Virus genome (UHGV): UHGV-0382128
Length of the DNA: 64,000 bases
Strand: one strand, 5' to 3'
Source: a virus
Below the pieces are notes generated by a model that saw only the letters and a list, made by a program, of their open reading frames with translations, searched no databases and was not told the origin of the DNA. Shown here piece by piece: positions 4,421 to 31,152 of the stretch. The stretch's first letter is position 1, and every line of letters begins with the position of its first letter. The translations under genes were made by a program, and so were the position numbers.

Positions 4421-4482
4421 GAGTATGATACCTTAGTATGACCCTTTTTCAAGGTCTTAAAGACTGAATATGGAGACGTTCC

Positions 4483-11959: not shown

Positions 11960-12763
11960 TTACCACTTCCCGTTACCTAAACCCATAACACGCAGGTTAG
12001 TTTTCTTATTAGCGATGGCCAGGTACTCCTGCGCTAACGCACGAACTTCACCACGACGAGATTCTGTCGCGATGGTAGACGTGGTGTTAGGATTTCGCAG
12101 AATGTCCTCCAGTGCCTGGAGAGAAACACGACGGTCCAGCAGTACACGAGTGGATTCTTGAGCCACTTTACTACCGCGTTGAATTGCAGAGTATTTGTTA
12201 CAAATCTGCAACCCGTCTTCGATAACCCAGTCAAACGTTACCAGGCGATCTAAGCGACGTGTTTTCACACCACCTACATAGCCTTCACGTACGATTGCGC
12301 GCAGAGAGAAACACACATTCTGGTGTGGGTTTTCGAGCGCTTCTGCTAAGTACGGACCACGTTCACGGTTCGGCTTAACCCAGCCCCAGATTTCCATGAC
12401 CGGCAAGCCGTTACAGGTTTGGTCGGTTGGAATCACTTCAACTTCACGAATGTGCATACAGACGTTTTTCGTCTCAATCCATTCGTTGCGATCGATCCAT
12501 TGCGCTTCGGTCATGCCGGGTTCTGGCGCTGGGTGATCTTCTTCCCCGAACAGATTCCCTGCTTTCACTTTACGCATAAAAATGTTCGAGCGTTCGAATA
12601 CGTGTTTGGACTCGTTATAGGCGTAAAAAATCCCTTCCGAGTTAAAGATATTCAAAGCACCCAATAGTACGCGGTAATAACCATCCGCGTCTTTCTCCAG
12701 TGTGGCTGGAGCGTTAACACCGGCTAACGCTACACAGTTGTAACGCAGTGTTAAATTGTCCAT
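11960..12763 (-). CDS. Hypothetical protein (267 aa), possibly virion/morphogenesis
   Basis: ORF in the block upstream of the RNAP fragments; no motif recognised. Confidence 0.5.
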   Translation of the reverse strand: MDNLTLRYNCVALAGVNAPATLEKDADGYYRVLLGALNIFNSEGIFYAYNESKHVFERSNIFMRKVKAGNLFGEEDHPAPEPGMTEAQWIDRNEWIETKNVCMHIREVEVIPTDQTCNGLPVMEIWGWVKPNRERGPYLAEALENPHQNVCFSLRAIVREGYVGGVKTRRLDRLVTFDWVIEDGLQICNKYSAIQRGSKVAQESTRVLLDRRVSLQALEDILRNPNTTSTIATESRRGEVRALAQEYLAIANKKTNLRVMGLGNGKW

Positions 12764-12794: not shown

Positions 12795-13529
12795 TTACCT
12801 CATAAACAAATCTTCGAGCGGTTCGGCACGCACCGGGTCAACCTGTAACGCAGAACGAATACCACGTTTAAGTTCTACGTCCGCAAGTTTCGCCAGTCTC
12901 GACGTTTTGTTAAGTGAACCACTGCGCAACGGAATAAACTGCACAGGGTTGTTAAGATCGCTATCTTTCTTCAGCGTATAACGGAAGAACGTTCTCGGAT
13001 CACCTACTTTACGCTGCGTGTGTGCTGCGTAAACGTCAGCGGTAATCTGATCGGCAAATACAGTAAAACCGTTCCATTTCTTGACTTTATCAGGTGCCAA
13101 GAGTTCAGCATCATCCGCCGCAGTAAACCAGAAAGGACGATTACCAAAGTCGTAAATATACGACGCAATGTTGTAAATAGGGTGAGACAACACCTGTAAA
13201 TTGCGGTTGGGGAAAACCACTGTACCGGGATCAAAACGAAATTCGTAATAAGGAACACCAAAGACGTCGATCTCTTCAAACGCCGTTGGGGTAATTTCCA
13301 TAAGCGTTGTAACGCTGGACACCCCATATGTTTTACGGTCGGTAGAAATCGCAAAGATACCTACTATTGTTACCGTAGAAGAAATAACCGCCAACTCTTT
13401 CGCCACAAACCCAACGGGGATGTAAATGTAACATCCCCCTTTGGTAGTGGTGACCGTGCCGTTATTTACCAAGTCCGCATGAACCTTAGTAGGGTCACGA
13501 CGGGCTGTTTCAATCGCACTCACGATCAC
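12795..13529 (-). CDS. Hypothetical protein (244 aa)
   Basis: ORF only. Confidence 0.5.
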   Translation of the reverse strand: MIVSAIETARRDPTKVHADLVNNGTVTTTKGGCYIYIPVGFVAKELAVISSTVTIVGIFAISTDRKTYGVSSVTTLMEITPTAFEEIDVFGVPYYEFRFDPGTVVFPNRNLQVLSHPIYNIASYIYDFGNRPFWFTAADDAELLAPDKVKKWNGFTVFADQITADVYAAHTQRKVGDPRTFFRYTLKKDSDLNNPVQFIPLRSGSLNKTSRLAKLADVELKRGIRSALQVDPVRAEPLEDLFMR

Positions 13530-15339: not shown

Positions 15340-18300
15340 TTATTTAAGTGTCGCGGGTAAATCAGGCACAGCTTCCCCATCGAGTATACGCCCGATGAGA
15401 ATCCCGGCTTGTTCACCTACAGCATTCGCGGTACCGATACGTTGGATTGAACCTACGATACGCGCATCGACAGAATCACGACCGAACAACACGTCCAGGT
15501 CATCACCATCCTCTGTTTTGTTGTCGCCGTACATGACTTCTTGTACGGTGGTTTTTAGCTGGTTAGCAATAACCATCTTATCCGCAGCGGCCATCTCAAC
15601 GTCGTGTGTAATAAAGAATCGAACACAAAGTGAGTTAAAGGCTAATGGTACACCTTCGACACGGTAGTCGCCGTTTACACTGCCTGAAACCGGATCACCT
15701 CGCCCGACTGCCAAAGCGGCTTTACGACGAATTCTGTCGTATTTACGCACCAGTTCAGCAAGGCTTGGTGTCATGTCTTCGGTTTCACCGTGATACACCA
15801 CTTCGATCTTATCCACGATACCACGTACCCCTGCACGAGGTGCGTACGAACTTAAACTTTGCAACGTTGCGGCTGCTTCCTGACTAAAGGCACTCATATC
15901 GCCTGTCAAGTCGTCAGTAAACGTGCATAGGATTGTATCGACGTCTACGTGGTCGCCCTCATTCACGATTTCCAAAAGCATCTGGTTGCTGTTAATCGTC
16001 ACTTCTTTCAGCTTTGTTACCTGCCCCACCATTTTCTTCGCGAACCGTTCAGAAATTGCGTTGGAGTCTTCGATAACTTCTTCAGCTTCTAATAAAGCAA
16101 CGGTAGCCAGCACCCCGTTTTTCCAGGAAACCTGAGTAGGATCGTAAATATCAGGTTCAAAGTGTTGCTCGTTGTACGTAATCACTGCTCCGGCCGGGAG
16201 CTTGTCACCGGCTTTCCAGCGTGTTACCAAGGTGTGCGGATAGAAGGTACCTTCGTGGGGGCCGAACCAGCGCCCTAGAGGAAAAGCTTCTTTACTTCCA
16301 TCTTCGTACGTAATTTCAATGTGGTCTTTCGACAGACCAGTAATCTTACCTGCTTTATCAATAACGCGTGCATGTTTCACCGAAGTACGGTGTGCGACGA
16401 ATTTCTCCTGTTCAGTACGATACGGGGTTGTGGTTGCCCCAATACAACTGGTGGCAGAACCTAACTGAATCCCAACGAAGTTTTGACGCTTTGCGTCGTC
16501 CATTAACGTATCTGGTACTAACCCGTCAATAAACGAAAGGGTGTCGCTTGGTTTCGGGGTTTTCTCTTCACGTTTAAATGTAGTACCGTCAACGGTGTCA
16601 AAACGTGGGTTATTGGTGACGAAAGCAGTAATACCTACGTCGCCGTTATCTACGGTGTTACCCGAGACTATCCCGATATCGCTGGGTTGGAACTCACGTG
16701 TGTGGTAGACCATCGTTTTACGATTACGACCACCTGTACCCCCCATCGTAATAACGTCTTTTTCTTTAATTGACTGGATAGGGTTAGCACCTGGTGCCAA
16801 AAGTACCGACGGGTCGGAGTTAATTGCACCCCAAACCATGTCTTGCGTCAGTTCGAACTTACGGTTACTGCCCGGTGCGTTATTGTAGTTACGCATCGCT
16901 CTGACCATCGCGGTATAGATGTGGTAGGCAATCCTCTGATTTCCTAAGAACATCATTTCATCGCCGTTAATCTCTGGTAAAGAGTGGTCAGTTTGTAACA
17001 GTTCGTTAGAACGTTCCAACAAGCCAATAAAGGTTTCCGGTTCACCCATTTTCCTGAGGATACGTGCGTGCATGTCGTCAACAAACGCGGACCGCATCTG
17101 TTTCAGCTCATTGATGTACCGTGGTGTTAGGCCATCTGCATCACGTAATAAGTTCAGGTAAATGTCTTCGCGGTCTGCTTCTGATTCAGTATAAGCAACC
17201 AGGTGTTTGAGATAGCGATCCAAACCATGCAGAATCATCTTCTGCTGATCGTTATCGCATGTAACTAAAAGTTTACAGTCTTGTAGTCGAATAATACTGT
17301 CGTAGGCATTCTTATCAACACGCTGCCCTGCGGGAACCAACTCGTACTGGATACCGAAATGTTTCAACATTCCCTGGAGTCCAAGGTAGAACGAGAAGAT
17401 AAAACCAAGCGACAAAGATTTACCCATCAAAGACAGCTCGGTCATTTCGCGAGGCACTTTCTGGTTATTAAAGCCCAGTACCTCTGCGATAGTTCCCACC
17501 GGCTCAACTTTGTTTCCGTTCACACCGTAAAGCATGGATTTGTCATCCATTGCCAGTATTGTTTCACTGCGCGGACGTTTCGCCACTGGCAAAAGTTTGG
17601 CAGCATCGGCGTCTCTGAGTTGTTCGTCGTTAAAGAAGTTAACGGCTTCTTTGTAGTCGAAGTTCCACATATAGCCATTCGCATTAAAGCTGGCAATACG
17701 ACGTGCAATCTCCGTATACTGACGAGGCAGATGTTGCGTAGGATCGAACACATTTGCTAAACGTGCATCGGTGACTTCGGTGTTTGTCGGGTCAACAGCG
17801 CGTGTGATAATCGCGTTGGTTAACCAACGACCGTAGTCGTTTGCGACCTTATCACTACGACGGACAAAGTTTTTACCGTATGCGGTAGTCAGTGCGACAG
17901 TATCCGGCGCAACCTTACGAATCGGTAAGTCCACACGTTGCCGACGCATGGTGTATTCGACACCATTAGCTACCCAAGTACCGTCCTCGGTCAAGCCTGG
18001 GATAGAGAAGCGAACGGTTGTTGGCTCACCACCGACTGGTTGAACACGTAAAGTGTGGTGCTCGATAGTCCCTGTAACAGAAACTTCTTTTTCCACCGTG
18101 TGATTGTGAATCGCCAGACCCAAACGTTGTGAGCTGGCGACCGCCGCCAGCACGTCCTTGGTCATCATGGTCTGGTTGTACTGTTTCATCATCTGGTCAG
18201 TGACGTTCTCGGCCCACCCTTCGTCGGTAACAAGTCGCTGAACCTTTTTCGGCTCGGCTTTAACGACGACATCTTTCTCGTGAACAGTAAGTGCTTCCCC

Positions 18301-19506
18301 GTAGGTTTCTTTCGGGTTATACGGGTTAGGCAGCTGAACGAAACGTTTAGACGATTCTGACAGGAACTGATATGCTTTAGAACTTAAGCGGCCCGCTTCA
18401 GCTAAGCGTTGTGCTTCTTGTTTAATAATTTCGTCATGCGGAATGACTTTCTCGACAACAATTGTCGTCGGTTTGACGTCTTCCTTCGGTTCTTCAATAA
18501 CAACGTCTTCTTTTTCATCGAAGGTGTTATCGGATTCGACCACAGCGTCATTAACAACGTCGTCATCATCGACAACATCAACGGTTTCTTCTTCGACGTC
18601 TTTAAGGAAAACACGTTCGTCGCCTTCAGGCGTTAGGAATTCCGCTTCGTACGCATTAGACGGCGCTTGTGTCATTACACGCACTAGCGTACGGTAGAAC
18701 ATCCTGGCCATTTGATCGTCACTTAAACGACCGCCGGAGGACTTACGCATTTTCTCTACAACACCCATGTTCATGGACGTAAAGCCCGTGTTGTGGGTGA
18801 AGATAAAGTTCATTCGTGACAGCTGAGTTAAATCCATTCCCGCGAATAAGGAATCGGATTGTTTTCCATAAGCCCAAGCAAACAACTCCAATAACCACAG
18901 CAAGTTGAAGTCCTGGAACTTCTCAATCTTGCTTTTAACACGGTCGTTATAGGTTGTTTGAAACTTCTGGAACGAGGGTAATGTCGAACCCAGTTCAATA
19001 ACGAAATAGTTCTGACGCATGTATTCTTGCGTGTCGTATTTGAACTGGTTAATCATCAACAGTTGGATGTTACGCAATCTATCGTACCAGGCTAACTGGG
19101 TATCAGGATAGTAGTAGTGCGATAGCATCGGCGTGTAGTTCTCGATCAGGAGAACTTTTAAGTCTTTGCGAACCAGTTCGTCTGAGGTAAGACGACGCAT
19201 CGGGCGGTTTGCACGGTGGTAGGCAAAGATAGCACGTTCTTGCCCCTGAACAGGTTTGTTGCGCGGATGTCCGCTAATACCGTCTTCCGGTAATTTAAAG
19301 TGGTGACGAACCTGTGCAGGTTTTTCTAACGGTTGAATAATCTCGAGTGTTGCAGGCGGCGCTAACACCACCTGGTCGAGATCAATGACATGGAGTACAG
19401 AACCTCGCGGTATCTGTAGCTTCTCGAGCGGGATAATCCTCGGATTACCAAACTCGTCGGTTTTACGCACCGAGAAGCGTTGGTTAAACTGTTTAATGAG
19501 CAGCAT
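15340..19506 (-). CDS. Multisubunit RNA polymerase beta-like subunit, N-terminal fragment (1388 aa)
   Basis: Near residues ~940-1045: GGTGGRNRKTMVYHTREFQPSDIGIVSGNTVDNGDVGI and TTPYR, resembling the bacterial beta region [36 protein letters not shown]...ETPYR. Protein ends before the beta C-terminal GDKxxxRHGNKG region, and lies 10 nt downstream of the beta-prime-like gene. Confidence 0.55.
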   Translation of the reverse strand: MLLIKQFNQRFSVRKTDEFGNPRIIPLEKLQIPRGSVLHVIDLDQVVLAPPATLEIIQPLEKPAQVRHHFKLPEDGISGHPRNKPVQGQERAIFAYHRANRPMRRLTSDELVRKDLKVLLIENYTPMLSHYYYPDTQLAWYDRLRNIQLLMINQFKYDTQEYMRQNYFVIELGSTLPSFQKFQTTYNDRVKSKIEKFQDFNLLWLLELFAWAYGKQSDSLFAGMDLTQLSRMNFIFTHNTGFTSMNMGVVEKMRKSSGGRLSDDQMARMFYRTLVRVMTQAPSNAYEAEFLTPEGDERVFLKDVEEETVDVVDDDDVVNDAVVESDNTFDEKEDVVIEEPKEDVKPTTIVVEKVIPHDEIIKQEAQRLAEAGRLSSKAYQFLSESSKRFVQLPNPYNPKETYGEALTVHEKDVVVKAEPKKVQRLVTDEGWAENVTDQMMKQYNQTMMTKDVLAAVASSQRLGLAIHNHTVEKEVSVTGTIEHHTLRVQPVGGEPTTVRFSIPGLTEDGTWVANGVEYTMRRQRVDLPIRKVAPDTVALTTAYGKNFVRRSDKVANDYGRWLTNAIITRAVDPTNTEVTDARLANVFDPTQHLPRQYTEIARRIASFNANGYMWNFDYKEAVNFFNDEQLRDADAAKLLPVAKRPRSETILAMDDKSMLYGVNGNKVEPVGTIAEVLGFNNQKVPREMTELSLMGKSLSLGFIFSFYLGLQGMLKHFGIQYELVPAGQRVDKNAYDSIIRLQDCKLLVTCDNDQQKMILHGLDRYLKHLVAYTESEADREDIYLNLLRDADGLTPRYINELKQMRSAFVDDMHARILRKMGEPETFIGLLERSNELLQTDHSLPEINGDEMMFLGNQRIAYHIYTAMVRAMRNYNNAPGSNRKFELTQDMVWGAINSDPSVLLAPGANPIQSIKEKDVITMGGTGGRNRKTMVYHTREFQPSDIGIVSGNTVDNGDVGITAFVTNNPRFDTVDGTTFKREEKTPKPSDTLSFIDGLVPDTLMDDAKRQNFVGIQLGSATSCIGATTTPYRTEQEKFVAHRTSVKHARVIDKAGKITGLSKDHIEITYEDGSKEAFPLGRWFGPHEGTFYPHTLVTRWKAGDKLPAGAVITYNEQHFEPDIYDPTQVSWKNGVLATVALLEAEEVIEDSNAISERFAKKMVGQVTKLKEVTINSNQMLLEIVNEGDHVDVDTILCTFTDDLTGDMSAFSQEAAATLQSLSSYAPRAGVRGIVDKIEVVYHGETEDMTPSLAELVRKYDRIRRKAALAVGRGDPVSGSVNGDYRVEGVPLAFNSLCVRFFITHDVEMAAADKMVIANQLKTTVQEVMYGDNKTEDGDDLDVLFGRDSVDARIVGSIQRIGTANAVGEQAGILIGRILDGEAVPDLPATLK

Positions 19507-19515
19507 TGCTTAGCC

Positions 19516-21135
19516 TTATGGGTTCTTTAATAACGCTTGCGTTGCACGTTTAATCACGTTGTTGATAGGATTGATTTTAAAGTTCCCATCAGAATCGAAC
19601 CAGTAGTTTTTCGAGTGTATCCAGTTCCGGTTTTCCTCGAGCGCTTCCTGGGACATAGGCGCGTTAAACGACCCGGTATCGCCATCGTAGTCACCCCCTA
19701 ACCCACCTAGGCGTGAAGGGTGTGGTGCCATAGACTCAACGAAGGTAGGAACCGACCGGTCAGGGTAGCTGATAGCCCCTCGGGGTTTTTCAGTTTCCCA
19801 GTCATCTTCCAGTTCTTTTAAATATAAAGATGACGTGGTGGTCTCCAATCTTATGGTCGATGAATACGTCGAGCCTCGGCCTGTAACGGGATAACGTGTA
19901 ACGAAACCGAAATAATCGTTCCAAAGTTCGTAGCCCGACAAATAAAGCAATTCGACGAGTGTCATACCGTGAACGAATTTTCGGTCAAACGTTTTAGGAA
20001 GTTCTTCAATATCGTAGAACACCTTAAAATGTTTGGTGTCTTGGTAAACCAACGCAACGTAGTGGGTGTCGTCCAACATAATCGGTTGATGGCGAAGCTC
20101 GCGAGCTTCCATTCGGTTGATTAAGGATTCAATCCCATCGTCGGTGGTAAAGGTGTCGTATACACGACCACCTACTTCCAAGAATTCACGTTTAAGGGTT
20201 TTGGTGTTTACGCCGTAAAGGTTGCCATCGCCAGCACGGATGTTACCGAGGTAACGTTCGCGTATCTGGTACTGCGCAACGGGGAGTAATGCTTTTAAAC
20301 CCTGGTATAAACCAATTTTGGTGTCGGTGGGACGAATAGCGTCTTCACGACCCATGCATTTAGACCCCGTCGAGAACGAGGACAGTACGTTACGTGTCCC
20401 GTTCATTAACTTACGAGACGTCACTTTACGACGTTGGAAACCCCCTTTACCGTCCTGGATGTTAAAGAAATACATCCAGATATCATTGAAGGTTTGTTGA
20501 AGTTTCCAGCGTACGGGGTTAGTTAACTCGACACGGGTTGCCCGGTCAGGGATCGCCCTGGCGAGAGATACCAACCGACGATACATCCCGCCGATTTCTT
20601 CTTCTTGCTCTCTACCATCTTGTCGAATTACTAAATCGCGTAAACCCGCGGGTAACACGAGAACGTATCGACTAAGACTAACGGGACGGAATTTCAAAAA
20701 GAAATCCACGGTTTCGTCACGTTGTAGAGACTCGTTACGCTTAGGTTTTAAATCGTTATAGTGACTGAGGAAGAAGTTAAAACCGGTATCTGCGCCTGGG
20801 TCTCCCGGCAAGGCCGGTTCGAAATCTTTTTCTTTTTCGCTCCAGGTTGCGTAGCGTTTTCCAGAACAAATTTCTTCGTAGAGTTGTTTGAGTTGGAATA
20901 ACGCCAAACACACTGTCGGCGAAATGATATCGAGCTTAATATCGATATAAGAGAATGTAGAGTCTCGCGCTTCACTACCCGTGAGTCCAAAAATCTCTGT
21001 AGAGTAAAGACCTTCGGGGTGAAAGTTTTTTGTTAACCCCTGGAAAGTATCCGTGGTCGTGACGGGTCGTAATCGCGACACAAGAGACTTGTTTACATTG
21101 AGCAGATAAAAGTCAACCCAATTAAGTTTATTCAC
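19516..21135 (-). CDS. Multisubunit RNA polymerase beta-prime-like subunit, N-terminal fragment (539 aa)
   Basis: GKGGFQRRKVTSRKLMNGTRNV resembles beta-prime [22 protein letters not shown]; C-terminal GGDYDGDTGS matches the NADFDGD Mg-binding motif; ORF ends ~50 aa after it. Confidence 0.65.
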   Translation of the reverse strand: MNKLNWVDFYLLNVNKSLVSRLRPVTTTDTFQGLTKNFHPEGLYSTEIFGLTGSEARDSTFSYIDIKLDIISPTVCLALFQLKQLYEEICSGKRYATWSEKEKDFEPALPGDPGADTGFNFFLSHYNDLKPKRNESLQRDETVDFFLKFRPVSLSRYVLVLPAGLRDLVIRQDGREQEEEIGGMYRRLVSLARAIPDRATRVELTNPVRWKLQQTFNDIWMYFFNIQDGKGGFQRRKVTSRKLMNGTRNVLSSFSTGSKCMGREDAIRPTDTKIGLYQGLKALLPVAQYQIRERYLGNIRAGDGNLYGVNTKTLKREFLEVGGRVYDTFTTDDGIESLINRMEARELRHQPIMLDDTHYVALVYQDTKHFKVFYDIEELPKTFDRKFVHGMTLVELLYLSGYELWNDYFGFVTRYPVTGRGSTYSSTIRLETTTSSLYLKELEDDWETEKPRGAISYPDRSVPTFVESMAPHPSRLGGLGGDYDGDTGSFNAPMSQEALEENRNWIHSKNYWFDSDGNFKINPINNVIKRATQALLKNP

Positions 21136-21164
21136 GCTAAATCTCCTGATACGGATTAAACGTT

Positions 21165-24100
21165 ATGGCTAAAAAAGGTAAAGATGATTTCGATGAAATC
21201 GATCTTGATAACATGGACGACTGGGACGATTTTGATGAGCCCCCTCGTCAACAAGACCAATCGCGTAACCCGGTCATGGACACATTTCGTGCTGCCCGTA
21301 AGTCGGCGTTGTCGACTATCTGGCCCGAAAACAAACGTGATCAGGTTATTTTAAAAGGGATGCCCAAACCTGCGGCAGAAGCCTACGAAGGCTATCAAAA
21401 CGTTAAAGCTGCAGGTCAAGACATTCTGGCCCATACGAAAGACGAGATTGAAAAGACGTCTCGCGTCGTTAAGATGCAAGCGAGACAGTTAGGCCCAACA
21501 CTGAAACGGTATTTACCAGAATCCGTAACACGGAAAATCGACAAGTGGGCACGTAACGATCAAATCGACTATGGGAATTACGATCCTAAACAAGCGTTGA
21601 TGGATCGTGAGCTGGACAGCGTGTTCTCAGGTGCACCGCAAACGGCGGACCAGCAACGCGAAACGCAAGAAGGGATGGTTGAAGACCGCTTGCGTGACAC
21701 GATTAAGGACATGAAGTCCGACGCACTGTTCCAGACAGTAATCGGTATTGCAAAAGACGTCAACTTAACGACTAGCTTAAGTCGTGGCGTGTTGTTGAAT
21801 GTTCAGCGTAAGCAGTTAGAGCTACAATATCGGACATTGTTTGCTTTGCAGGATATTGCGAAACTCAAACAAGATGAGTTTGCACGCAATACACCGGCAT
21901 TAGAAGCTATCGTTAAGAACACAGCACTGCCAGACTACGCGAAGGAAGAGTTTTCTGAAGTTCGTTGGGCTAATGTAAAACGTAAAGCTGCGGAGTGGAT
22001 GAACCCCTTACGCTACGCAGACAATTTCGTTGATCAAATTCGTGAAAATGCGAAGAAGAAAATATCGAACATCTTTAGTGACGGCCGTGGAATTCTAGAA
22101 CAAGTTCTAGGGATGGCTCAGGAAGATGACTTTGGCATGTCGGACAGCTCATCGTTGTCCCCTGACCGTCGTAACACAAACTCGCGTAATAAAGCGGCAG
22201 GTTTTGCAGGTGGTTGGTTAGCAAAACGGTTCTTACAACCCCAGATCGAGCGTCTCCAAAACTGGACTCGTGGCGAGTTAGAGAAAAATCCAGAAGTAAT
22301 GAAGCGGTTGGAAAAGCTGAATTACATCGTTAGTAATAAATCGTCACTTTCTAACTCAGCTATTGCGGGGGAGTCGAGCGGATGGTTAGCCGACTTTTTC
22401 CGCCTGTTGAACGACGTGGGATTGGTTAACCCGCTACGTCGCGAAACGTTAGCATTAGACGATCGCTCTGCGGAATCTCTTTCTGCGGCGGCGAAATTCG
22501 ATCGTAAAGCTTACCTCAGCATCACCGAAGTTATTCCGACATTACTGTCCGAGATTAACAAATCTATTCGTCGGGGATATGGTGAACACCACGATCAGGT
22601 TTATGACCTGACCACGCGCGGTATGGTGGATCGTAAAGTTATTGGTAATCGTGTTCGTAAAGCGGTCGCTAATGACGATCAGCGTAAACGTTTACAGACT
22701 TACATCAACGACACTGTTGACTTTATCGATAAAGATAAAACGCTCGATAATAAAACACGTCAAGCATTAGCGGACTACATCGAATCTCGTGCCTCAGAAG
22801 GGAAAGCGTTCGACGTAGGGTCTTTATTGAAAGACCCGATGCACATGTATCGGTACATGAACGCAAACGCTGTGGAAGCGATTCAGGGTGTTTTAGAAGC
22901 CCGTTCTGCGGAACTGGTTGGTGGGCACCATGAACTGAGCAACGCGATTTCAAACAAAATCGCCGCTATCCAGTCAACGATTCGCGCACGTCAGGACACT
23001 GTTGATGCTGCGTCTGTGATTTACGGCGAGAATGCACTTCGTGATTCCGGTATTTTTAAATACGATGCGAAGAATGACATTTTCGAGGTCGATAAGGACA
23101 TTAACGATCCCTATACGTTATTTAATGACCTGTCGATGGGTAAGACCCGCTCTGGACGTTCGTTAACCCGTGAGCAAGAGATTCAGCGTAAGTTGCAAAA
23201 CGGTTCTGCGTTGGGTGATTACTTGCGTCGGATGGGTGCAGGCGCGGAGACGAGCTTTGAAGACAAAGAACTGTCCAATGTACGTGGCGGTGGAAAAGGA
23301 GGTCGTGGTCGCGGTTTAAGCGCACGCCAACTCGCTGCGGTACTTTATGGAGAGAAATCCACTAACTTTGTTGAACTATTAAGCAGTCGTCCAGACACGA
23401 ACGCCGGGTTGGAGCATCAATTCGACCGTTTGATTGATGCTGTACGTAAACAGCCCGAATCTAGCACAGTGCAAGATATCCTCAAACACGTTAAGAACAT
23501 GGATGAGGAAGGTATTCTCCTAGCCAGTTTAGGCGGTAGTCGTGATGACGGTGACGAATCTGAAAGTTCGAGTGACTCGGGTCGTAAACGTCGTCGTAAA
23601 CGCAAACGTATTGTGCTAGGCGAGACAGGATTGTTACGCCGTTGGGCTGGGGTGCTTTGGGATACCGGTTCAGGTGTAGGGCGGTTTGGTAAGAATCTGT
23701 TCCTACGTGGGAAAGATCGTCTGCAGGCTTTAGGTGGTTTTATCCGTGGGAAATTCTCAGGCGGATCCTCCGAAGGACCCGGTGTATTTAGCCGACTGAA
23801 AGGGCTAGTAACAGGTACTCTATCGACAGGTTGGAATTCTGCTGTAGCTTTCGGTAAAGGCGTTTTAGGCGTTCGTGATATTTACGATGAGCGTGGCAAC
23901 GTCGTATTACAAGGAAGTCGTTTAGAAGCTGGGGAATATTACCAGGCTGACCCGAAAACTGAGAAGCTGATTCAACTTAAAACCCTCGACGATATTAAAC
24001 TGGGACGTGATATTGTCGATGAAGCGGGTAATTTAATCTTAGCTGCTGCTGATTTGGCTGCCGCAGGTAAACTGCGCTTCTACAAAGGTGGTAAAGTTCA

Positions 24101-27100
24101 AGCGCTTTTCCAGTACATTTCTGGGAAAGCAGGAACGGCGGTAAACAAAGCTGTGACTTTACCGAAGAAACTTCTGGGCTTCATTTCACCTAAAGCGGCT
24201 TCGTTGTTCGAGAAAGCACGTGAGTGGTTAAATGAGGTTCCAGAGGGCGCAGAGAAAACCCGTTTACAAAGTATGATTTCCCGTGTAACGGGAATGCCAG
24301 CACGTTTGTGGAACAATGCAAAACGCGGGTTTGAGAAGCTCAAAGAGTTGGCTTCTGATAACCCTCTGACACGTTGGTGGCAGAACCGTAAGGAAGGTGG
24401 TTCTGGTGGTGGGTTTAGTGTGTTCTCATGGTCGAACGGCCGTAAAACTAACCACATCTTAATCCGTATCTACAAACTCCTTAACCGGAGATTGCCAGGT
24501 GAACCAGAAGATGATACCTGGACAGAACAGATGGAACGGAATACGGGAGCCAGCTCAGTTAAAGGATTATTCCAACGTGCTAAAGACATACGTGATGGGT
24601 TCCGTGAACATTTTCAGGGGTTCCGGGATTGGCGTGGTCGGATGCGTGACAGAATGTCCCGTTATCGCAGTGCGGTAGGTGGTCGTCTTTCTCGTTGGGG
24701 CGGTGCCGCACGTGGTTGGTTTGATCGTTTCCGTGGCCATGCAAGCGATATGGTCGATACTTTCCGAGACCCACGTTACGATATCGGCACACGTTATCGA
24801 ATGGAGAGTCGTTTAGCAGGACGCGATGACGATGTTGCTGAGTTTTATCGTCAGCACATCTACGCAAGAGGCAAGGTGTCTAAAACACGTATCATCGATG
24901 CGGCAAAAGAAGACTTAGACACCGTAACGGATAGCGCTGGACGTGTGATTAATAAAGGGAAACAGAAAGCCCGTAGCGTTGGGTCAGCTTTACTGGAACG
25001 CCTGAACCGAATGGTTAATCTTCAGGAAATGTCATGGTTTAACACCATGCGTGATTCTGCGGAAAAAGCAGGTGCTTCGGAAGGTTTGTTAAGAACTATG
25101 TTCAGTAAGTTCGGCCAACGCAATAAGCCGCCTGCCAGTGATGAAAAACGCGATTACTTCCAGTTCTTCCGACGCCGTCGGCGTTCTAAGGAAGAGGAAA
25201 AGGCTAAGAAAGAGGCTGGGAAGAAAGGTGGTAAACGTGGGGTAATGGATTTCCTTAAAGGATTGCCGTTGGTAGGACCAATCGTGAGTATTTTAGGCAC
25301 AGTGGGTTCAATCTTAGGTAAACTTGCAAAATGGGGAATCTTCAAGCCGGTTGGATTTGCAGGCAAAGCGTTGTGGAACGTTGGTAAGTTTGCCGTGACC
25401 CGTTTGGCTGTCCCTGCGGTTAGTGCTGTCGCGACAGCTGCATCTGCAGTGGTAACTGCGGTTGGCTGGCCGATTATCGGTTTGGTAGCCGCTGGCGCAG
25501 GGTTAACGTGGTTTTATTATAAAACTAAAGATCGTGTAAATGCCCAGTATCTGGATAACATGCGATTGGCACAGTACGGTTTTAGAGACCACGATGAATG
25601 GTCTTCCGACGACGGTGCAAAAGCACGTTATTTAGAAGACAACTTGAAACCGTATATCTCTTATACAGAGAACGGTCAAGCGCAGCTGCGTGGTTTGTCC
25701 GGTGACGATGTGAAGAAACTGGCCGAAGGGTTTGGTACTAACGTAGAAGACAAAGGCGAAATGCTGGCGTTTAGTGCGTTTATGCTACAACGTTTTGTGC
25801 CTATTTACTTACGTTGGATTACGGCACTGAAATCGATGGATAATGATATCGCGTTAGCTGACGTCGGTAATCCAGCAAAAGTGTCGAAAGCAGACATGTT
25901 GAACATCTTTAACAAAATGAAGATGTCGAAAGACGCACCTGCATTCCGTGCATTAGAAGACCCCCGCAAGGTTAATCAAGGTTGGTTCTCTAAAGCGTGG
26001 GATTTCGTAACGTTTACCCCGGCCGAGTTTTTGTCAGGTGAAGAAGTCGTTGAAGCACAAGAACGCGTGCTTCGTTCGATTAACATGCGTCGTGATGAAA
26101 AACGTAAGGATGTAAATGCTACGGGCAGCGTGGCCGAAGGACACAAAGTTGCTTCTGTGGCGGAATCGTCCCAAGCGTTGGCTCAAGCGGATGCGGAACG
26201 CAACAAAGAGGTTGCAAAGGTTGAAGGTTGGGAAGACGGCACCGAACAAGTTCAGGTTCAAGTTGACTGGAGAAGCTTACCTAAAGAAACCGATCTCCGT
26301 GATTTGGAATCTGTAAGGTTGAAAGCTTATGGTGCTGTGAGCATTACTCAAACAACCCGTAACCTCTATACGCTCCTAGAACGTCAAGTGTTGCAAGACA
26401 CTGATGTGAAAAGTTGTACGTATAAAGGAGACTGGAAACGTGCGATTGCAGTGATTGCACCTGACGCTATTGGTGGACCAAAAGAAGATCGGTACAAGAA
26501 CTGGTTCTACAACCGCTTCTTACCTGTCTTCATGACGTACGTGGTTGGGGTGAAACGTTATGTCCCTGCTGCCGATCCGATGGACCTACGCGTTACAGGC
26601 GGGTTCTTGTATGAAATCGCACTGATGATGCGTGGTGCGTACAACCTGAAAGGGGGTATTCGCCAATCGGTGTGGGAGGTACCGTTTAACCCGTTAGGGG
26701 GTGATGCTAACACTGACGCTGGTTCAGTTGCGACGGAGTTAGAGAATCTGAAAGAACTGTCTAAGGAAGCTGATTTGGCAGTACGTAAAACGCTGCGTGC
26801 TACGCCTTCTGCTGGTTTCCGTGTGAACTGGCAGCGAAAAGATCGTGCGACTCAGATGTTCTTGACCGATGACGAGAAGGACCAACCACCTCGGCAACAG
26901 ATGAATACTTCCTCCTCTTATCGCGATCTGCTTCAACCGGCAGCGAATGACGGTGGGAATTACGGCACGCCAAACGATTTGGCTGGTGCTTATGGTCAGA
27001 TGGGGGCTAAGAATTACGCCGCGTTTAGTACCGGTAACTTCGGTGTGAAGCTTGGCGAGATGCAAGACGGTGATTATAAAACGTTAGCGGCTAAGTATCC

Positions 27101-28289
27101 AATTTCAACGTTGGGTGACGGATTGAAGCCTAACCTGAATGCGGTCGCAGCACTGATTATAGACGTAGCGAAGATGATGGGTGTTCCTCCAGCGTTAGCG
27201 CTGGGAATGGCACAAGCAGAATCAGGACTTAGATACGGCATCAAAGCTAAAGGAAGTTCTGCAGCTGGCTTGTTCCAGTTCATCAACGGTACCTGGAGTG
27301 AGCAGATGAAAGCTTACGCTAGACGTTACGGTATCCCGCAAACCGACCAGTATGACCCGTGGGCGAATGCCCTGCTTGGTGTCCGCCATATTCGTGACAA
27401 TATCGAGAAAGCCAGAAAGGATTTAGGTGGCATCGATCCTCCCGGTGCAGCAGTTTACCTCTACCACTTCTTAGGACAAGGTGGCGGTAAGAAATTCCTG
27501 CAAGAATGGAAGCGTGATCCGAACGGTCCGTCATCGCGTGGTGCATCGGCCGATCAAATCGCGGCAAACAGCACAATTTTCTACAAGAATGGAAAATTGC
27601 GTAGTTTGGATGAAGTGCTCAGCATCATGGGTGGTAAGATTGGTGCAGTAGGAACAAACGCAATTGCGGGCAATCAGGCATCGGTGAAAGACTTGACGAC
27701 TGGCGTAACGCCAATGCCGTCATCCCCAGCCATCGCTGCGGGCGCTGCTAACGATCCGTCCATCACAGGCCCGGCAGATAACCTGCCAGCTGCGAACGAG
27801 GCGAATCGTGACACAGCCTTAGCAGATAAAGGTGCAATGGGGGCCGATGACATTAAAGCTGCGACGGGCGGTGGTCCGGCGGTGCCGAGCCCCGGCGGCG
27901 ACGTTACACCGAGTGATGCGTCAGTTGTTGTAGATACGGTGGGTCAAAATGCTCGTGCTGACGGCCTGGCCGAAGAGGATGTTGCTAAAGTAAAAGAAGG
28001 TGCTAGACAGCAGATGGAGAAATCAGTCCGCCCTGCACCAACAGTAACTTCCGATGCACAGACTGGTTCTACAGTGAACAGCGGTGATCCGATCAGTGTA
28101 CAACAGCTGGCGGTTGCAAAAGAGTCTGCGGGCTACCTGAAAGAGATTGTAACAATTCTTCGTCAGCGGCCACAGGCTATGCAAAACGGACCGGCTAACC
28201 CTGCGTCAACCGCTCCGGGTTCGGCGTCACGTAACGTGTCAATAACCCAACCCACGCCACAACTCGACGTTAGTCGTAAATCGGCGTAA
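21165..28289 (+). CDS. Giant virion-associated protein (2374 aa) with C-terminal lytic transglycosylase (SLT) domain
   Basis: SLT signature GMAQAESGLRYG...SSAAGLFQFINGTW at about nt 27180-27300; polybasic GRKRRRKRKR; long hydrophobic segment (about 25250-25520); acidic N-terminus. Confidence 0.8.
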   Translation: MAKKGKDDFDEIDLDNMDDWDDFDEPPRQQDQSRNPVMDTFRAARKSALSTIWPENKRDQVILKGMPKPAAEAYEGYQNVKAAGQDILAHTKDEIEKTSRVVKMQARQLGPTLKRYLPESVTRKIDKWARNDQIDYGNYDPKQALMDRELDSVFSGAPQTADQQRETQEGMVEDRLRDTIKDMKSDALFQTVIGIAKDVNLTTSLSRGVLLNVQRKQLELQYRTLFALQDIAKLKQDEFARNTPALEAIVKNTALPDYAKEEFSEVRWANVKRKAAEWMNPLRYADNFVDQIRENAKKKISNIFSDGRGILEQVLGMAQEDDFGMSDSSSLSPDRRNTNSRNKAAGFAGGWLAKRFLQPQIERLQNWTRGELEKNPEVMKRLEKLNYIVSNKSSLSNSAIAGESSGWLADFFRLLNDVGLVNPLRRETLALDDRSAESLSAAAKFDRKAYLSITEVIPTLLSEINKSIRRGYGEHHDQVYDLTTRGMVDRKVIGNRVRKAVANDDQRKRLQTYINDTVDFIDKDKTLDNKTRQALADYIESRASEGKAFDVGSLLKDPMHMYRYMNANAVEAIQGVLEARSAELVGGHHELSNAISNKIAAIQSTIRARQDTVDAASVIYGENALRDSGIFKYDAKNDIFEVDKDINDPYTLFNDLSMGKTRSGRSLTREQEIQRKLQNGSALGDYLRRMGAGAETSFEDKELSNVRGGGKGGRGRGLSARQLAAVLYGEKSTNFVELLSSRPDTNAGLEHQFDRLIDAVRKQPESSTVQDILKHVKNMDEEGILLASLGGSRDDGDESESSSDSGRKRRRKRKRIVLGETGLLRRWAGVLWDTGSGVGRFGKNLFLRGKDRLQALGGFIRGKFSGGSSEGPGVFSRLKGLVTGTLSTGWNSAVAFGKGVLGVRDIYDERGNVVLQGSRLEAGEYYQADPKTEKLIQLKTLDDIKLGRDIVDEAGNLILAAADLAAAGKLRFYKGGKVQALFQYISGKAGTAVNKAVTLPKKLLGFISPKAASLFEKAREWLNEVPEGAEKTRLQSMISRVTGMPARLWNNAKRGFEKLKELASDNPLTRWWQNRKEGGSGGGFSVFSWSNGRKTNHILIRIYKLLNRRLPGEPEDDTWTEQMERNTGASSVKGLFQRAKDIRDGFREHFQGFRDWRGRMRDRMSRYRSAVGGRLSRWGGAARGWFDRFRGHASDMVDTFRDPRYDIGTRYRMESRLAGRDDDVAEFYRQHIYARGKVSKTRIIDAAKEDLDTVTDSAGRVINKGKQKARSVGSALLERLNRMVNLQEMSWFNTMRDSAEKAGASEGLLRTMFSKFGQRNKPPASDEKRDYFQFFRRRRRSKEEEKAKKEAGKKGGKRGVMDFLKGLPLVGPIVSILGTVGSILGKLAKWGIFKPVGFAGKALWNVGKFAVTRLAVPAVSAVATAASAVVTAVGWPIIGLVAAGAGLTWFYYKTKDRVNAQYLDNMRLAQYGFRDHDEWSSDDGAKARYLEDNLKPYISYTENGQAQLRGLSGDDVKKLAEGFGTNVEDKGEMLAFSAFMLQRFVPIYLRWITALKSMDNDIALADVGNPAKVSKADMLNIFNKMKMSKDAPAFRALEDPRKVNQGWFSKAWDFVTFTPAEFLSGEEVVEAQERVLRSINMRRDEKRKDVNATGSVAEGHKVASVAESSQALAQADAERNKEVAKVEGWEDGTEQVQVQVDWRSLPKETDLRDLESVRLKAYGAVSITQTTRNLYTLLERQVLQDTDVKSCTYKGDWKRAIAVIAPDAIGGPKEDRYKNWFYNRFLPVFMTYVVGVKRYVPAADPMDLRVTGGFLYEIALMMRGAYNLKGGIRQSVWEVPFNPLGGDANTDAGSVATELENLKELSKEADLAVRKTLRATPSAGFRVNWQRKDRATQMFLTDDEKDQPPRQQMNTSSSYRDLLQPAANDGGNYGTPNDLAGAYGQMGAKNYAAFSTGNFGVKLGEMQDGDYKTLAAKYPISTLGDGLKPNLNAVAALIIDVAKMMGVPPALALGMAQAESGLRYGIKAKGSSAAGLFQFINGTWSEQMKAYARRYGIPQTDQYDPWANALLGVRHIRDNIEKARKDLGGIDPPGAAVYLYHFLGQGGGKKFLQEWKRDPNGPSSRGASADQIAANSTIFYKNGKLRSLDEVLSIMGGKIGAVGTNAIAGNQASVKDLTTGVTPMPSSPAIAAGAANDPSITGPADNLPAANEANRDTALADKGAMGADDIKAATGGGPAVPSPGGDVTPSDASVVVDTVGQNARADGLAEEDVAKVKEGARQQMEKSVRPAPTVTSDAQTGSTVNSGDPISVQQLAVAKESAGYLKEIVTILRQRPQAMQNGPANPASTAPGSASRNVSITQPTPQLDVSRKSA

Positions 28290-31087: not shown

Positions 31088-31152
31088 AAAAAGAAAAAAA
31101 ATAAGAAAGTTAACCTACCTCCGAAGGGAGGTAGGTGCTTTTATTTATTTCG
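31088..31152. terminator. Bidirectional rho-independent terminator
   Basis: A-run, stem cctacctcc / ggaggtagg with loop gaag (31114-31135), then tgcttttatttatttc; between convergent genes. Confidence 0.8.

What the first reader, a model, noticed from the sequence alone, without database searches (positions are those of the whole stretch)
21136..21164. Very short divergent spacers imply embedded or non-sigma70 promoters
The beta-prime-like gene and the giant gene start 29 bp apart on opposite strands. Similarly 54384-54408 is 25 bp and 4421-4482 is 62 bp. These spacers hold the SDs but leave no room for two canonical -35/-10 promoters, so transcription must start inside neighbouring coding sequence or use compact phage-RNAP promoters. 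I could not find a convincing recurrent promoter motif by eye.
Basis: inference. Interest (0 to 1): 0.4.

Follow-up and report, generated by a model that had tools for sequence, protein, structure and literature searches.

The report
Jumbo-phage divergent genes with embedded promoters
Three pairs of back-to-back genes in this giant phage are separated by only 25-62 bases because the phage transcribes with its own RNA polymerases from tiny TATG-type start signals, and for the tightest pairs those signals appear to lie inside the neighbouring gene's coding sequence.

Summary
The spacers are 29, 25 and 62 bp. The two shortest hold only two back-to-back Shine-Dalgarno sequences. The same compression (23-32, 20-27 and 57-62 bp) recurs in 8-14 related genomes from at least 6 genera.

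The window comes from an SPN3US/Asesino-like, nucleus-forming jumbo phage with its own multisubunit RNA polymerases. Sigma-70-type promoters are therefore not expected, and sigma-70-like matches are under-represented (58 found, 94.5 expected).

- An AT-rich AGAyAGATATTATC element, which resembles the early-promoter type of jumbo phages.
- TATG, the phiKZ non-virion RNA polymerase start signal.

TATG is the most depleted tetranucleotide on the coding strand (166 observed, 252 expected). Longer divergent spacers carry conserved TATGs 30-43 nt upstream of the start codons. The 29- and 25-bp spacers carry none in a usable position.

Instead, antisense TATGs pointing at the junction are invariant in 8 of 16 cases in the six flanking genes. 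In 35 other genes the figure is 0 of 28 (Fisher P = 7e-5). They lie 165-1310 nt upstream of the gene they would serve.

This supports embedded, compact phage-polymerase promoters. It is a prediction: no 5' ends have been mapped. It is a new member of a known kind, of moderate interest.

The parts
21136..21164 (.). 29-bp divergent spacer (junction 1). It holds only two back-to-back SD elements: CTCC at 21143-21146, which is GGAG for the minus-strand gene, and GGA at 21153-21155 for the plus-strand gene.
   Evidence: The length is 23-32 bp in 14 genomes. Only the SD bases are conserved. The only plus-strand TATG (21164-21167) overlaps the start codon and is not conserved, and no usable one lies upstream of either SD.
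19516..21135 (-). Gene for the N-terminal beta-prime subunit of the virion RNA polymerase (homolog of SPN3US gp240 and phiKZ gp180), with a GTG start.
   Evidence: PMC5105663
21165..28289 (+). Giant 2374-aa tail or tape-measure-like protein with a C-terminal SLT lytic transglycosylase domain (homolog of SPN3US gp239 and phiKZ gp181).
   Evidence: PMC5105663
21432..21435 (-). Candidate embedded promoter core for the virion RNA polymerase operon. It is a minus-strand TATG (CATA on the plus strand) with its G at 21432, 297 nt upstream of the GTG at 21135, inside codon 90 of the giant gene.
   Evidence: It is invariant in 10 of 10 genomes and is one of only 15 invariant 4-mers in 3.2 kb. It sits at the top synonymous-constraint peak of the giant gene. 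In 6 of 10 genomes it is the only TATG in the 1.5 kb upstream.
19844..19860 (+). 17-nt nucleotide-invariant block, TCCAATCTTATGGTCGA, containing a plus-strand TATG at 19852-19855 with its G at 19855. It lies 1310 nt upstream of the giant gene's ATG, antisense to codons 426-431 of the beta-prime gene. It is a candidate embedded promoter for the giant gene or for an antisense RNA.
   Evidence: It is invariant in 10 of 10 genomes despite rare ATA and AGA codons. It is the strongest synonymous-constraint peak of the gene (ratio 1.73).
54384..54408 (.). 25-bp divergent spacer (junction 2), consisting of abutting SDs CCTC|GGAG at 54390-54397.
   Evidence: The spacer is 20-27 bp in 8 genomes.
53880..54383 (-). 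167-aa gene, the first gene of the long minus-strand block downstream of junction 2.
54409..55782 (+). 457-aa virion structural protein, homolog of the phiKZ gp157 head protein.
54071..54076 (.). Invariant CATATG. Its plus-strand TATG has its G at 54076, 333 nt upstream of the ATG at 54409. It also carries a minus-strand TATG.
   Evidence: It is kept in 8 of 8 genomes, in a gene with only 6 invariant 4-mers.
55328..55333 (.). CATATG. Its minus-strand TATG has its G at 55328, 945 nt upstream of the start at 54383. A second minus-strand TATG at 55000-55003 lies 617 nt upstream.
   Evidence: The site at 55328 is kept in 8 of 8 genomes and the one at 55000 in 5 of 8.
4421..4482 (.). 62-bp divergent spacer (junction 3). 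It holds CCTTAGTATGACC (TATG at 4437-4440, 43 nt upstream of the tail sheath gene's ATG), the palindrome GGTCTTAAAGAC, and TATGGAGAC (4469-4477) overlapping the SD.
   Evidence: CCTTAGTATGACC and TATGGAGA are kept in all 10 genomes.
3512..4420 (-). Gene for a phiKZ gp28-like vertex-binding protein. It contains an invariant antisense (plus-strand) TATG at 4011-4014, 469 nt upstream of the sheath gene's ATG.
   Evidence: The TATG is kept in 7 of 7 genomes, within the only invariant run of 11 nt or more in this gene.
4483..6540 (+). Tail sheath gene (phiKZ gp29-like). Its first 15 codons are the most synonymously constrained part of the gene. Minus-strand TATGs at 4585-4588 and 5264-5267 lie 165 and 844 nt upstream of the gp28-like gene.
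   Evidence: Both sites are kept in 5 of 7 genomes, and both are invariant in the 3-genome set.
44752..44849 (.). 98-bp divergent spacer, used for comparison. It holds two back-to-back conserved TATG elements: one on the plus strand with its G at 44819 and one on the minus strand with its G at 44782. The two G positions are 37 bp apart, and each lies about 30 nt upstream of its start codon.
40745..40815 (.). 71-bp divergent spacer, used for comparison. It holds a conserved near-palindromic AT-rich element, TAGATAATATCTGTCTGA, at about 40770-40787.

Best explanation
The window is part of an SPN3US/Asesino-like, nucleus-forming jumbo phage. Such phages transcribe their DNA with their own multisubunit RNA polymerases, not with host sigma-70 holoenzyme.

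In this clade the 25- and 29-bp divergent spacers have been compressed to the minimum needed for two ribosome-binding sites, and they carry no promoter. The promoters of these gene pairs are compact TATG-type initiators of the kind recognised by the phiKZ non-virion RNA polymerase (nvRNAP). In phiKZ only positions -3 to +1 are read base-specifically and upstream contacts are to the DNA backbone.

Here those initiators sit inside the coding sequence of the opposite gene, on its antisense strand, 165-1310 nt upstream of the gene they serve. The two transcription units of each pair would therefore start face to face and overlap by about 0.6-1.6 kb. At longer divergent spacers (62 and 98 bp) the same TATG elements sit inside the spacer, 30-43 nt upstream of the start codons.

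Shown here:
- the spacer geometry and its conservation across genera;
- the absence of sigma-70-like sites at these junctions;
- the specific depletion of TATG;
- the junction-specific conservation of antisense TATGs.

Inferred, not shown:
- that these TATGs are real transcription start sites;
- which polymerase uses them;
- that they yield the mRNAs of the neighbouring genes rather than separate antisense RNAs.
For: Lineage:
- The window is about 73% identical in DNA to Erwinia phage Asesino, and the beta-prime protein is 85% identical to that of SPN3US.
- Asesino is nucleus-forming (PMC11724907).
- The group encodes a virion (vRNAP) and a non-virion (nvRNAP) RNA polymerase (PMC7598289, PMC5105663).

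Spacers:
- They are conserved in length, and only the SD bases are conserved in sequence.

Sigma-70:
- 58 sigma-70-like matches were found against 94.5 expected from shuffles. None is placed to serve a junction gene.

TATG as a signal:
- It is the most depleted of 256 tetranucleotides on the sense strand of coding sequence, compared with within-gene synonymous shuffles (166 observed, 252 expected, z = -7.8).
- Its complement CATA has the lowest observed/expected ratio (0.64, z = -4.8).
- The related words TATA, TATC, TATT, AATG, CATG and GATG are not depleted.
- The depletion recurs in Asesino, SPN3US, Kwan, Phobos/Derbicus, Goslar and phiKZ fragments, with ratios of 0.45-0.72.

Conserved TATGs in longer spacers:
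- They lie about 30-43 nt upstream of the start codons in the 62- and 98-bp divergent spacers.
- In the 75-bp spacer between phiKZ gp180 and gp181, a TATG lies 30 nt upstream of gp181.

Junction-specific conservation:
- In codon alignments of 41 genes, antisense TATGs are invariant in 8 of 16 cases in the six genes flanking the three short junctions. The background invariance there is 8.7% (binomial P = 2e-5).
- In the other 35 genes, 0 of 28 antisense TATGs are invariant (Fisher P = 7e-5). Sense-strand TATGs are conserved at the background rate.

Deeper alignments:
- The site with G at 21432 is kept in 10 of 10 genomes, 19855 in 10 of 10, 4014 in 7 of 7, 54076 in 8 of 8 and 55328 in 8 of 8.
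- Several of these coincide with the top synonymous-constraint peak of their gene.
- In most genomes the conserved site is the only TATG in the 1.5 kb upstream of the giant gene or of the beta-prime gene.

Mechanistic precedent:
- In phiKZ, TATG from -3 to +1 is necessary for late transcription. [quoted passage not shown] Such a promoter can therefore overlap coding sequence at little cost.
Against: - No transcription start has been mapped for any phage of this clade. No such study turned up in the paper library searched.
- The implied 5' leaders are long (165-1310 nt). The 1310-nt leader for the giant gene is uncomfortable, and that site may instead drive an antisense RNA.
- TATG alone is not sufficient for phiKZ promoter activity (PMC4666361). 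The window still holds 262 TATGs on the two strands combined.
- The extended consensus I derived (TTTCnTATGG) is weak and rests on only 13 sites.
- phiKZ vRNAP genes are middle genes, and phiKZ middle promoters were not transcribed by purified nvRNAP in vitro (PMC7598289). A second, unrecognised promoter class close to the spacers therefore cannot be excluded.
- The first 15 codons of both junction 1 genes and of the sheath gene show raised synonymous constraint. This could mark promoter elements right at the junction.
- The TATG hypothesis was formed on junction 1 and then tested on the others, so the test is only partly independent.
- For the gp28-like gene, the two candidate sites are kept in only 5 of 7 genomes.
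Confidence: 0.55

Rival explanations
1. Transcription starts within, or within a few tens of bases of, the short spacers. It would use a promoter class not recognised here, for example a clade-specific middle promoter. Its elements would extend into the first roughly 15 codons of the opposite gene, giving leaders of about 15-60 nt.
For: - Synonymous constraint is raised in the first 15 codons of the beta-prime gene (ratio 1.17, 94th percentile) and of the giant gene (1.19, 98th percentile). A tandem control gene shows 1.07 (62nd percentile).
- The first 15 codons of the sheath gene are the most constrained of that gene (ratio 1.40). They include a rare CGA codon and the near-palindrome AACGGCGCGCCATT.
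- phiKZ middle promoters have a motif at about -24 and need no TATG (PMC4666361).
Against: - Nothing other than the SD bases is conserved in the 25- and 29-bp spacers.
- I found no motif shared between the 5' coding regions at junctions 1, 2 and 3.
- Constraint at the 5' end can also come from translation initiation.
- This reading does not explain why antisense TATGs are conserved only in the junction-flanking genes.
Confidence: 0.2
2. The conserved antisense TATGs are real start sites, but they produce regulatory antisense RNAs against the genes they lie in. These would be the beta-prime subunit of the virion polymerase, the giant protein, the gp157-like protein and the gp28-like protein. 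On this reading they do not produce the mRNAs of the neighbouring genes.
For: - The site with G at 19855 lies 1310 nt from the giant gene, inside a 17-nt invariant block that is far longer than a TATG core needs.
- Two of the sites are CATATG palindromes, which would fire in both directions.
Against: - Such sites are conserved only in the genes next to a divergent junction. None is conserved in 35 other genes, including many late structural genes (0 of 28).
- Any transcript from these sites would run into the neighbouring gene, unless a terminator intervenes. The scans found no strong hairpin terminator between these sites and the junctions.
Confidence: 0.13
3. There is no local promoter. The minus-strand genes at the junctions are expressed by read-through from promoters far upstream, crossing the plus-strand islands in antisense.
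For: - The genome is about 94% coding, with long same-strand blocks and few conserved intergenic elements.
- Many tandem genes have a terminator hairpin directly abutting the next SD.
Against: - This cannot apply to the plus-strand genes. The nearest upstream plus-strand unit before the giant gene ends 13.7 kb away, at a strong bidirectional terminator (7435-7463).
- For the minus-strand genes, read-through would have to pass strong bidirectional terminators (31113-31136 and 56416-56443) and then 2-10 kb of antisense sequence.
Confidence: 0.08
4. Host sigma-70 RNA polymerase transcribes these genes from weak or overlapping promoters.
For: There is one 10-of-12 sigma-70-like match on the minus strand in the 62-bp spacer (4452 to 4425).
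Against: - The -10 hexamer of that match ends 4 nt from the start codon, downstream of the SD.
- There is no such match at junction 1 or junction 2.
- Sigma-70-like matches are under-represented overall (58 found, 94.5 expected).
- phiKZ development is independent of host RNA polymerase, and the close relative Asesino encloses its DNA in a phage nucleus (PMC4666361, PMC11724907).
Confidence: 0.03

Closest known systems
phiKZ late promoters (5'-T(-3)ATG(+1)-3'), recognised by the non-virion RNA polymerase (Ceyssens 2014 as cited in PMC7598289; Yakunina 2015, PMC4666361; structure in PMC12809450)
   Same: - The same four-base core.
- The same phage family and the same divergent gene pair (phiKZ gp180/gp181).
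- Conserved TATGs 30-43 nt upstream of structural-gene start codons, matching the TATG 30 nt upstream of phiKZ gp181.
- TATG is under-represented in fragments of both genomes.
   Different: - In this clade the 25- and 29-bp spacers hold no usable TATG. The conserved, correctly oriented TATGs lie inside the opposite gene, 165-1310 nt away.
- No start-site mapping or in vitro transcription exists for this clade.
- The non-virion polymerase genes are not in this window.
AT-rich early promoters of RNA-polymerase-encoding jumbo phages, used by the virion polymerase (PMC7598289, PMC5312081, PMC11512511)
   Same: The window holds a conserved AT-rich element of 12-14 nt, AGAyAGATATTATC, upstream of several genes. 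It is invariant across four genera. This matches the published description of early promoter motifs: about 10 nt, AT-rich, centred near -10.
   Different: It is absent from the three short spacers in the finding, so it does not explain them. That it is an early promoter is inferred from resemblance only.
AR9 non-virion polymerase late promoters (template-strand 3'-UUGU-N6-AU/C-5')
   Same: It is another compact, non-sigma-70 promoter read by a jumbo-phage multisubunit polymerase.
   Different: The motif is different and depends on uracil in the DNA. I did not test for it here, and nothing found here suggests it applies.
Overlapping (face-to-face) divergent promoters and internal or antisense start sites in bacteria and phages
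   Same: The predicted starts lie inside the opposite gene, so the 5' regions of the two transcription units would be complementary. dRNA-seq work on phiKZ also classified internal and antisense starts (PMC8244752).
   Different: Here the arrangement is inferred from conservation, not mapped. It would apply systematically to the most compressed junctions of a whole clade.

Membership tests
phiKZ-type non-virion RNA polymerase promoter (TATG, -3 to +1) | A TATG on the non-template strand, positioned upstream of the gene it serves. | tested here: met
   This is met only outside the 25- and 29-bp spacers. Conserved, correctly oriented TATGs have their G at 21432 (-), 19855 (+), 54076 (+), 55328 (-), 4014 (+) and 4440 (+). 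No usable TATG lies inside 21136-21164 or 54384-54408.
phiKZ-type non-virion RNA polymerase promoter (TATG, -3 to +1) | Transcription starts at the G of TATG. | not testable with these tools
   This needs 5'-end mapping or in vitro run-off transcription. No data for this clade were found in the paper library.
phiKZ-type non-virion RNA polymerase promoter (TATG, -3 to +1) | The phage encodes the five-subunit non-virion polymerase, including homologs of GP123 and gp68. | not tested
   No non-virion polymerase gene was identified in the window. The window holds virion polymerase subunits at 19516..21135, 15340..19506 and 41953..42621. Possession of both polymerases is reported as a hallmark of the group (PMC5105663, PMC7598289).
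phiKZ-type non-virion RNA polymerase promoter (TATG, -3 to +1) | TATG behaves as a selected signal. This is supporting evidence, not a defining feature. | tested here: met
   TATG ranks 1 of 256 for depletion in coding sequence (z = -7.8). Antisense TATG has an observed/expected ratio of 0.64. Antisense copies are conserved only next to divergent junctions.
Sigma-70 promoter | -35 and -10 hexamers 16-18 bp apart, upstream of the SD of the gene served. | tested here: not met
   No match is placed upstream of the genes at junction 1 or 2. The single match in the 62-bp spacer ends 4 nt from the start codon. Overall, 58 matches were found against 94.5 expected.
Jumbo-phage early (virion polymerase) AT-rich promoter | A highly conserved AT-rich motif of about 10 nt, recurring upstream of genes. 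| tested here: not met
   The motif AGAyAGATATTATC occurs at 40773-40784, 50404-50415, 59903-59914 and, as a variant, 10270-10285. It does not occur in or next to the three spacers of the finding.

The most novel reading that the evidence does not exclude
In the SPN3US/Erskinevirus-like nucleus-forming phages, the most compressed divergent operon pairs are the virion-polymerase operon versus the giant tail protein, the gp157-like head protein versus its neighbour, and the sheath versus the gp28-like protein. These pairs would be driven by face-to-face TATG promoters buried 0.2-1.3 kb inside each other's coding sequences. Each pair would then necessarily produce kilobase-long complementary 5' regions. 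This built-in sense/antisense overlap, or the collision of polymerases, would be used to time or balance expression of virion components. Selection against stray TATG would also shape codon choice across the whole genome.
Probability: 0.3. Interest if true: 0.6.

Novelty: new member of a known kind. Interest (0 to 1): 0.4.

Why it matters
Middle and late promoters of RNA-polymerase-encoding jumbo phages are said to escape bioinformatic prediction (PMC7598289).

Two sequence-only signatures found here point at TATG-type promoters in a clade that has no transcriptome data:
- TATG is specifically depleted.
- Antisense TATGs are conserved only beside divergent junctions.

Together they yield a short list of exact start sites in SPN3US and Asesino that can be tested directly.

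If the predictions hold, they would explain how these very compact genomes can shrink divergent spacers to two ribosome-binding sites. They would also show that paired virion operons are transcribed as overlapping antisense units. This matters for annotating, engineering and regulating phages that are being considered for therapy and biocontrol.

If they fail, the finding reduces to an ordinary consequence of known non-sigma-70 transcription in this phage family.

Tried and rejected
- **Sigma-70 scan of the whole window.** Nothing relevant turned up, and matches are under-represented.
- **The 9-mer CTTAGTATG**, which is shared by the sheath spacer and the relatives' copies of the 98-bp spacer. 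It has 5 hits with up to 1 mismatch against about 11 expected, so it is not a general motif.
- **The 16-nt core of the invariant beta-prime block.** It does not recur in the window, so it is not a repeated motif.
- **Overall TATG frequency in intergenic DNA upstream of genes.** It is not enriched (46 observed, 57 expected). Only its position and its conservation carry information.
- **My first synonymous-conservation measure.** It was inflated by two-fold-degenerate D, K and F codons at the N-terminus of the giant gene, so I replaced it with a measure normalised by amino acid.
- **Homology of the invariant beta-prime block to phiKZ, RAY or Goslar.** The block is not conserved outside the SPN3US-like clade. 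The phiKZ antisense TATG at codon 396 was not shown to be homologous, since the aligned phiKZ segment has no CATA.
- **Published start-site tables for phiKZ and 201phi2-1.** The supplements are not held in the library, so the orthologous gp180/gp181 starts could not be read. Ceyssens 2014 is not held either.
- **Rfam and tRNA scans of the window.** Both returned nothing.
- **An eye-level search for a motif shared by the 5' coding regions at junctions 1 and 2.** Only weak GTTTAA-like similarity appeared, and I did not pursue it.
Full report
**What the window is**

The region around the finding is about 73% identical in DNA to Erwinia phage Asesino. The 539-aa product of 19516..21135 (-) is 85% identical to its counterparts in SPN3US, phiEaH2 and Asesino, and has homologs in 315 jumbo-phage records down to phiKZ and AR9. 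IMG/VR holds the same sequence in a 225-kb viral contig.

SPN3US genetics assigns the gene functions (PMC5105663):
- The 539-aa protein is gp240, the N-terminal beta-prime fragment of the virion RNA polymerase (vRNAP).
- The next gene downstream, 15340..19506 (1388 aa), is gp241, the N-terminal beta fragment.
- The divergent giant gene, 21165..28289 (2374 aa), is gp239, called the tape-measure protein. It has a C-terminal SLT domain and corresponds to phiKZ gp181.

Asesino is a nucleus-forming member of the Chimalliviridae (PMC11724907). In phiKZ of this family, transcription is independent of host RNA polymerase. It uses a virion enzyme for early genes and a non-virion enzyme (nvRNAP) for middle and late genes (PMC7598289, PMC4666361).

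**The observation**

All three spacers exist as described: 29 bp (21136-21164), 25 bp (54384-54408) and 62 bp (4421-4482).

The start codons are supported by homology. Similarity to relatives begins at residue 1, and the annotated starts coincide.

The two shortest spacers are essentially two Shine-Dalgarno elements placed back to back:
- Junction 1 has CTCC at 21143-21146 and GGA at 21153-21155.
- Junction 2 has CCTC|GGAG at 54390-54397.

In multi-genome alignments nothing else in these spacers is conserved.

The compression is a property of the clade:

| Junction | Spacer in this clade | Genomes |
|---|---|---|
| 1 | 23-32 bp | 14 |
| 2 | 20-27 bp | 8 |
| 3 | 57-62 bp | 10 |

The gene pair of junction 1 is divergent throughout the family, but less tightly packed elsewhere: 42 bp in RAY, 75 bp in phiKZ and 152 bp in Goslar.

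The window is about 94% coding. It consists of long minus-strand blocks interrupted by small plus-strand islands. Each island starts at a divergent junction and nearly all end at a strong bidirectional terminator.

The plus-strand gene at each junction therefore cannot be reached by read-through. Before the giant gene, the nearest upstream plus-strand unit ends 13.7 kb away.

**Sigma-70 is not the answer**

Four scans covering the window found 58 sigma-70-like matches against 94.5 expected from shuffles. None lies upstream of a gene at junction 1 or 2. The single match in the 62-bp spacer has its -10 hexamer 4 nt from the start codon, downstream of the SD.

**Recurrent motifs do exist**

The first is an AT-rich element, AGAyAGATATTATC.
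- It occurs upstream of several minus-strand genes: 40773-40784, 50404-50415, 59903-59914 and, as a variant, 10270-10285.
- It is invariant across four genera in otherwise unconserved intergenic DNA.
- It fits the published description of jumbo-phage early promoters (PMC7598289).
- It is not found at the three spacers of the finding.

The second is TATG. This is the core of phiKZ late promoters, in which the G is +1. All four bases are required in vitro (PMC4666361). [quoted passage not shown]

In this window TATG behaves as a selected signal:
- Against within-gene synonymous shuffles, it is the most depleted of all 256 tetranucleotides on the sense strand of coding sequence (166 observed, 252 expected, z = -7.8).
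- Its complement, which is antisense TATG, has the lowest observed/expected ratio (69 observed, 108 expected).
- The related words TATA, TATC, TATT, AATG, CATG and GATG are not depleted.
- Against a second-order Markov expectation, it is the most under-represented non-palindromic tetranucleotide here and in Asesino, SPN3US and Kwan (ratios 0.50-0.70). It is also low in fragments of Goslar, phiKZ and RAY.

**Where conserved TATGs lie**

In the longer divergent spacers, conserved TATGs sit 30-43 nt upstream of the start codons.
- In the 62-bp spacer, CCTTAGTATGACC (G at 4440) and TATGGAGAC are kept in all 10 genomes.
- In the 98-bp spacer, two back-to-back elements are conserved, with G at 44819 on the plus strand and G at 44782 on the minus strand. 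The two G positions are only 37 bp apart.
- In phiKZ, a TATG lies 30 nt upstream of gp181.

The 29- and 25-bp spacers have no usable TATG. Instead, 10-genome codon alignments show the following:
- In the first 400 codons of the giant gene, only one antisense TATG is kept in 4 or more genomes. It has its G at 21432, lies 297 nt upstream of the beta-prime GTG, and is present in all 10 genomes. It sits at the top synonymous-constraint peak of that gene.
- In the beta-prime gene, only one antisense TATG is conserved. It has its G at 19855, lies 1310 nt upstream of the giant gene's ATG, and is present in all 10 genomes. It lies inside a 17-nt invariant block, TCCAATCTTATGGTCGA, which is maintained despite rare ATA and AGA codons (synonymous-constraint ratio 1.73).

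In most genomes these conserved sites are the only TATG in the 1.5 kb upstream of each gene on its own strand.

**A test across the window**

I aligned 41 window genes with their orthologs in Asesino, SPN3US and Kwan.

| Gene set | Antisense TATGs | Invariant | Background invariance |
|---|---|---|---|
| Six genes flanking the three short junctions | 16 | 8 | 8.7% |
| Other 35 genes | 28 | 0 | 9.3% |

- For the flanking genes the binomial probability is P = 2e-5. The contrast between the two sets gives Fisher P = 7e-5.
- Sense-strand TATGs are conserved at the background rate.

Deeper sampling confirmed the junction 2 and junction 3 sites.
- CATATG at 54071-54076 carries a plus-strand G at 54076, 333 nt upstream of the ATG at 54409. 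It is invariant in 8 of 8 genomes, in a gene with only six invariant tetranucleotides.
- The minus-strand TATG with G at 55328 lies 945 nt upstream of the start at 54383 and is kept in 8 of 8.
- The plus-strand TATG with G at 4014, inside the gp28-like gene, is kept in 7 of 7. The two minus-strand sites in the sheath gene (G at 4585 and 5264) are kept in 5 of 7.

At most of these sites, keeping TATG requires two wobble positions to stay fixed.

**Interpretation**

The best reading is as follows.
- This clade uses phiKZ-like, four-base initiators.
- Where spacers have been compressed to two ribosome-binding sites, the promoters lie inside the opposite gene.
- The paired units then start face to face and would overlap by about 1.58 kb at junction 1, 1.25 kb at junction 2 and 0.57 kb at junction 3.

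A promoter whose only base-specific element is four bases long, with backbone-only upstream contacts, can be laid over coding sequence at little cost. This explains why the spacers could shrink.

**Caveats**
- No 5' ends have been mapped in this clade.
- The implied leaders are long, especially the 1310 nt for the giant gene. That site may instead drive an antisense RNA.
- TATG is necessary but not sufficient in phiKZ.
- phiKZ virion-polymerase genes are middle genes, and their promoter class is poorly defined.
- The first roughly 15 codons of the junction genes show raised synonymous constraint. This is the main support for the rival reading that unrecognised promoter elements sit right at the junction.
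- The extended consensus, TTTCnTATGG, is weak.

**Comparison and verdict**

The finding is an instance of known non-sigma-70 transcription in jumbo phages.

What is added here:
- a clade-wide signature of TATG avoidance;
- a junction-specific set of conserved embedded TATGs that gives exact, testable start-site predictions, with SPN3US coordinates.

I class it as a new member of a known kind, of moderate interest.

Noticed in passing
window 19844-19860 (minus-strand gene 19516..21135, codons 426-431): A 17-nt block, TCGACCATAAGATTGGA on the sense strand, is nucleotide-invariant in 10 genomes from at least 6 genera. It uses the rare codons ATA and AGA, and it is the strongest synonymous-constraint peak of the gene (ratio 1.73). 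It is much longer than a TATG core would need. It is not conserved in phiKZ, RAY or Goslar and does not recur elsewhere in the window. Its function is unknown: it could be a promoter, an antisense RNA start, a homing-endonuclease target or a translational pause site.
   Followed up: partly
window 40773-40784 (-), 50404-50415 (-), 59903-59914 (-), 10270-10285 (-): An AT-rich motif, AGAyAGATATTATC, is invariant across four genera upstream of orthologous genes. The copy in the 71-bp divergent spacer (40745-40815) is nearly palindromic and could serve both divergent genes. It resembles the early-promoter type of jumbo phages, which is used by the virion polymerase.
   Followed up: partly
whole window and loci L021-L027: GATC and CTAG are the two most under-represented tetranucleotides. 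Their observed/expected ratios are 0.63 and 0.64 here. CTAG falls to 0.09-0.18 in Asesino and in Phobos/Derbicus. This suggests avoidance of restriction or methylation sites.
   Followed up: no
window 4483-4530: The first 15 codons of the tail sheath gene are the most synonymously constrained part of that gene (ratio 1.40). They contain a rare CGA codon and the near-palindrome AACGGCGCGCCATT (4501-4514), which is a perfect 14-nt palindrome in SPN3US and phiEaH2. This could be a hairpin, an operator, or part of the promoter of the gp28-like gene.
   Followed up: partly
window 7435-7463, 31113-31136, 45616-45645, 56416-56443: Most plus-strand gene islands end at a strong bidirectional hairpin terminator shared with the converging minus-strand block.
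   Followed up: partly
window 36557-36584, 47533-47558, 53387-53416, 57032-57053, 42908-42935, 28298-28317: Many tandem genes are preceded by a GC-rich hairpin, in most cases with a T-run, that directly abuts the next gene's SD. This leaves no room for a separate promoter. It suggests leaky terminators or processing sites within long operons.
   Followed up: no
window 12801-12804 (-): A sense-strand TATG is conserved in the last codons of 12795..13529, 38 nt upstream of the start of the prohead-protease homolog 11960..12763. It is a candidate internal promoter. Nine other invariant sense-strand TATGs are listed.
   Followed up: no
L025 12955-13017 (SPN3US NC_027402.1 179954-180016): The RefSeq start of the SPN3US ortholog of 53880..54383 appears to be 36 nt too far downstream. 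Homology from residue 1 places the start so that the spacer is 27 bp, not the annotated 63 bp.
   Followed up: partly
window 32003-32605: About 600 bp between 31145..32002 and 32606..33052 has no ORF of 80 aa or more. Only overlapping ORFs of 60-77 aa are present. Its content was not examined.
   Followed up: no
L026 about 21158-21229 (SPN3US NC_027402.1 about 238157-238228): The 72-bp divergent spacer between SPN3US ACQ60_gp004 and ACQ60_gp003 holds a 12-bp palindrome, TATGATAACATA. It places a TATG on each strand, 37-39 nt upstream of each start codon. This is a very compact candidate for a bidirectional promoter.
   Followed up: no
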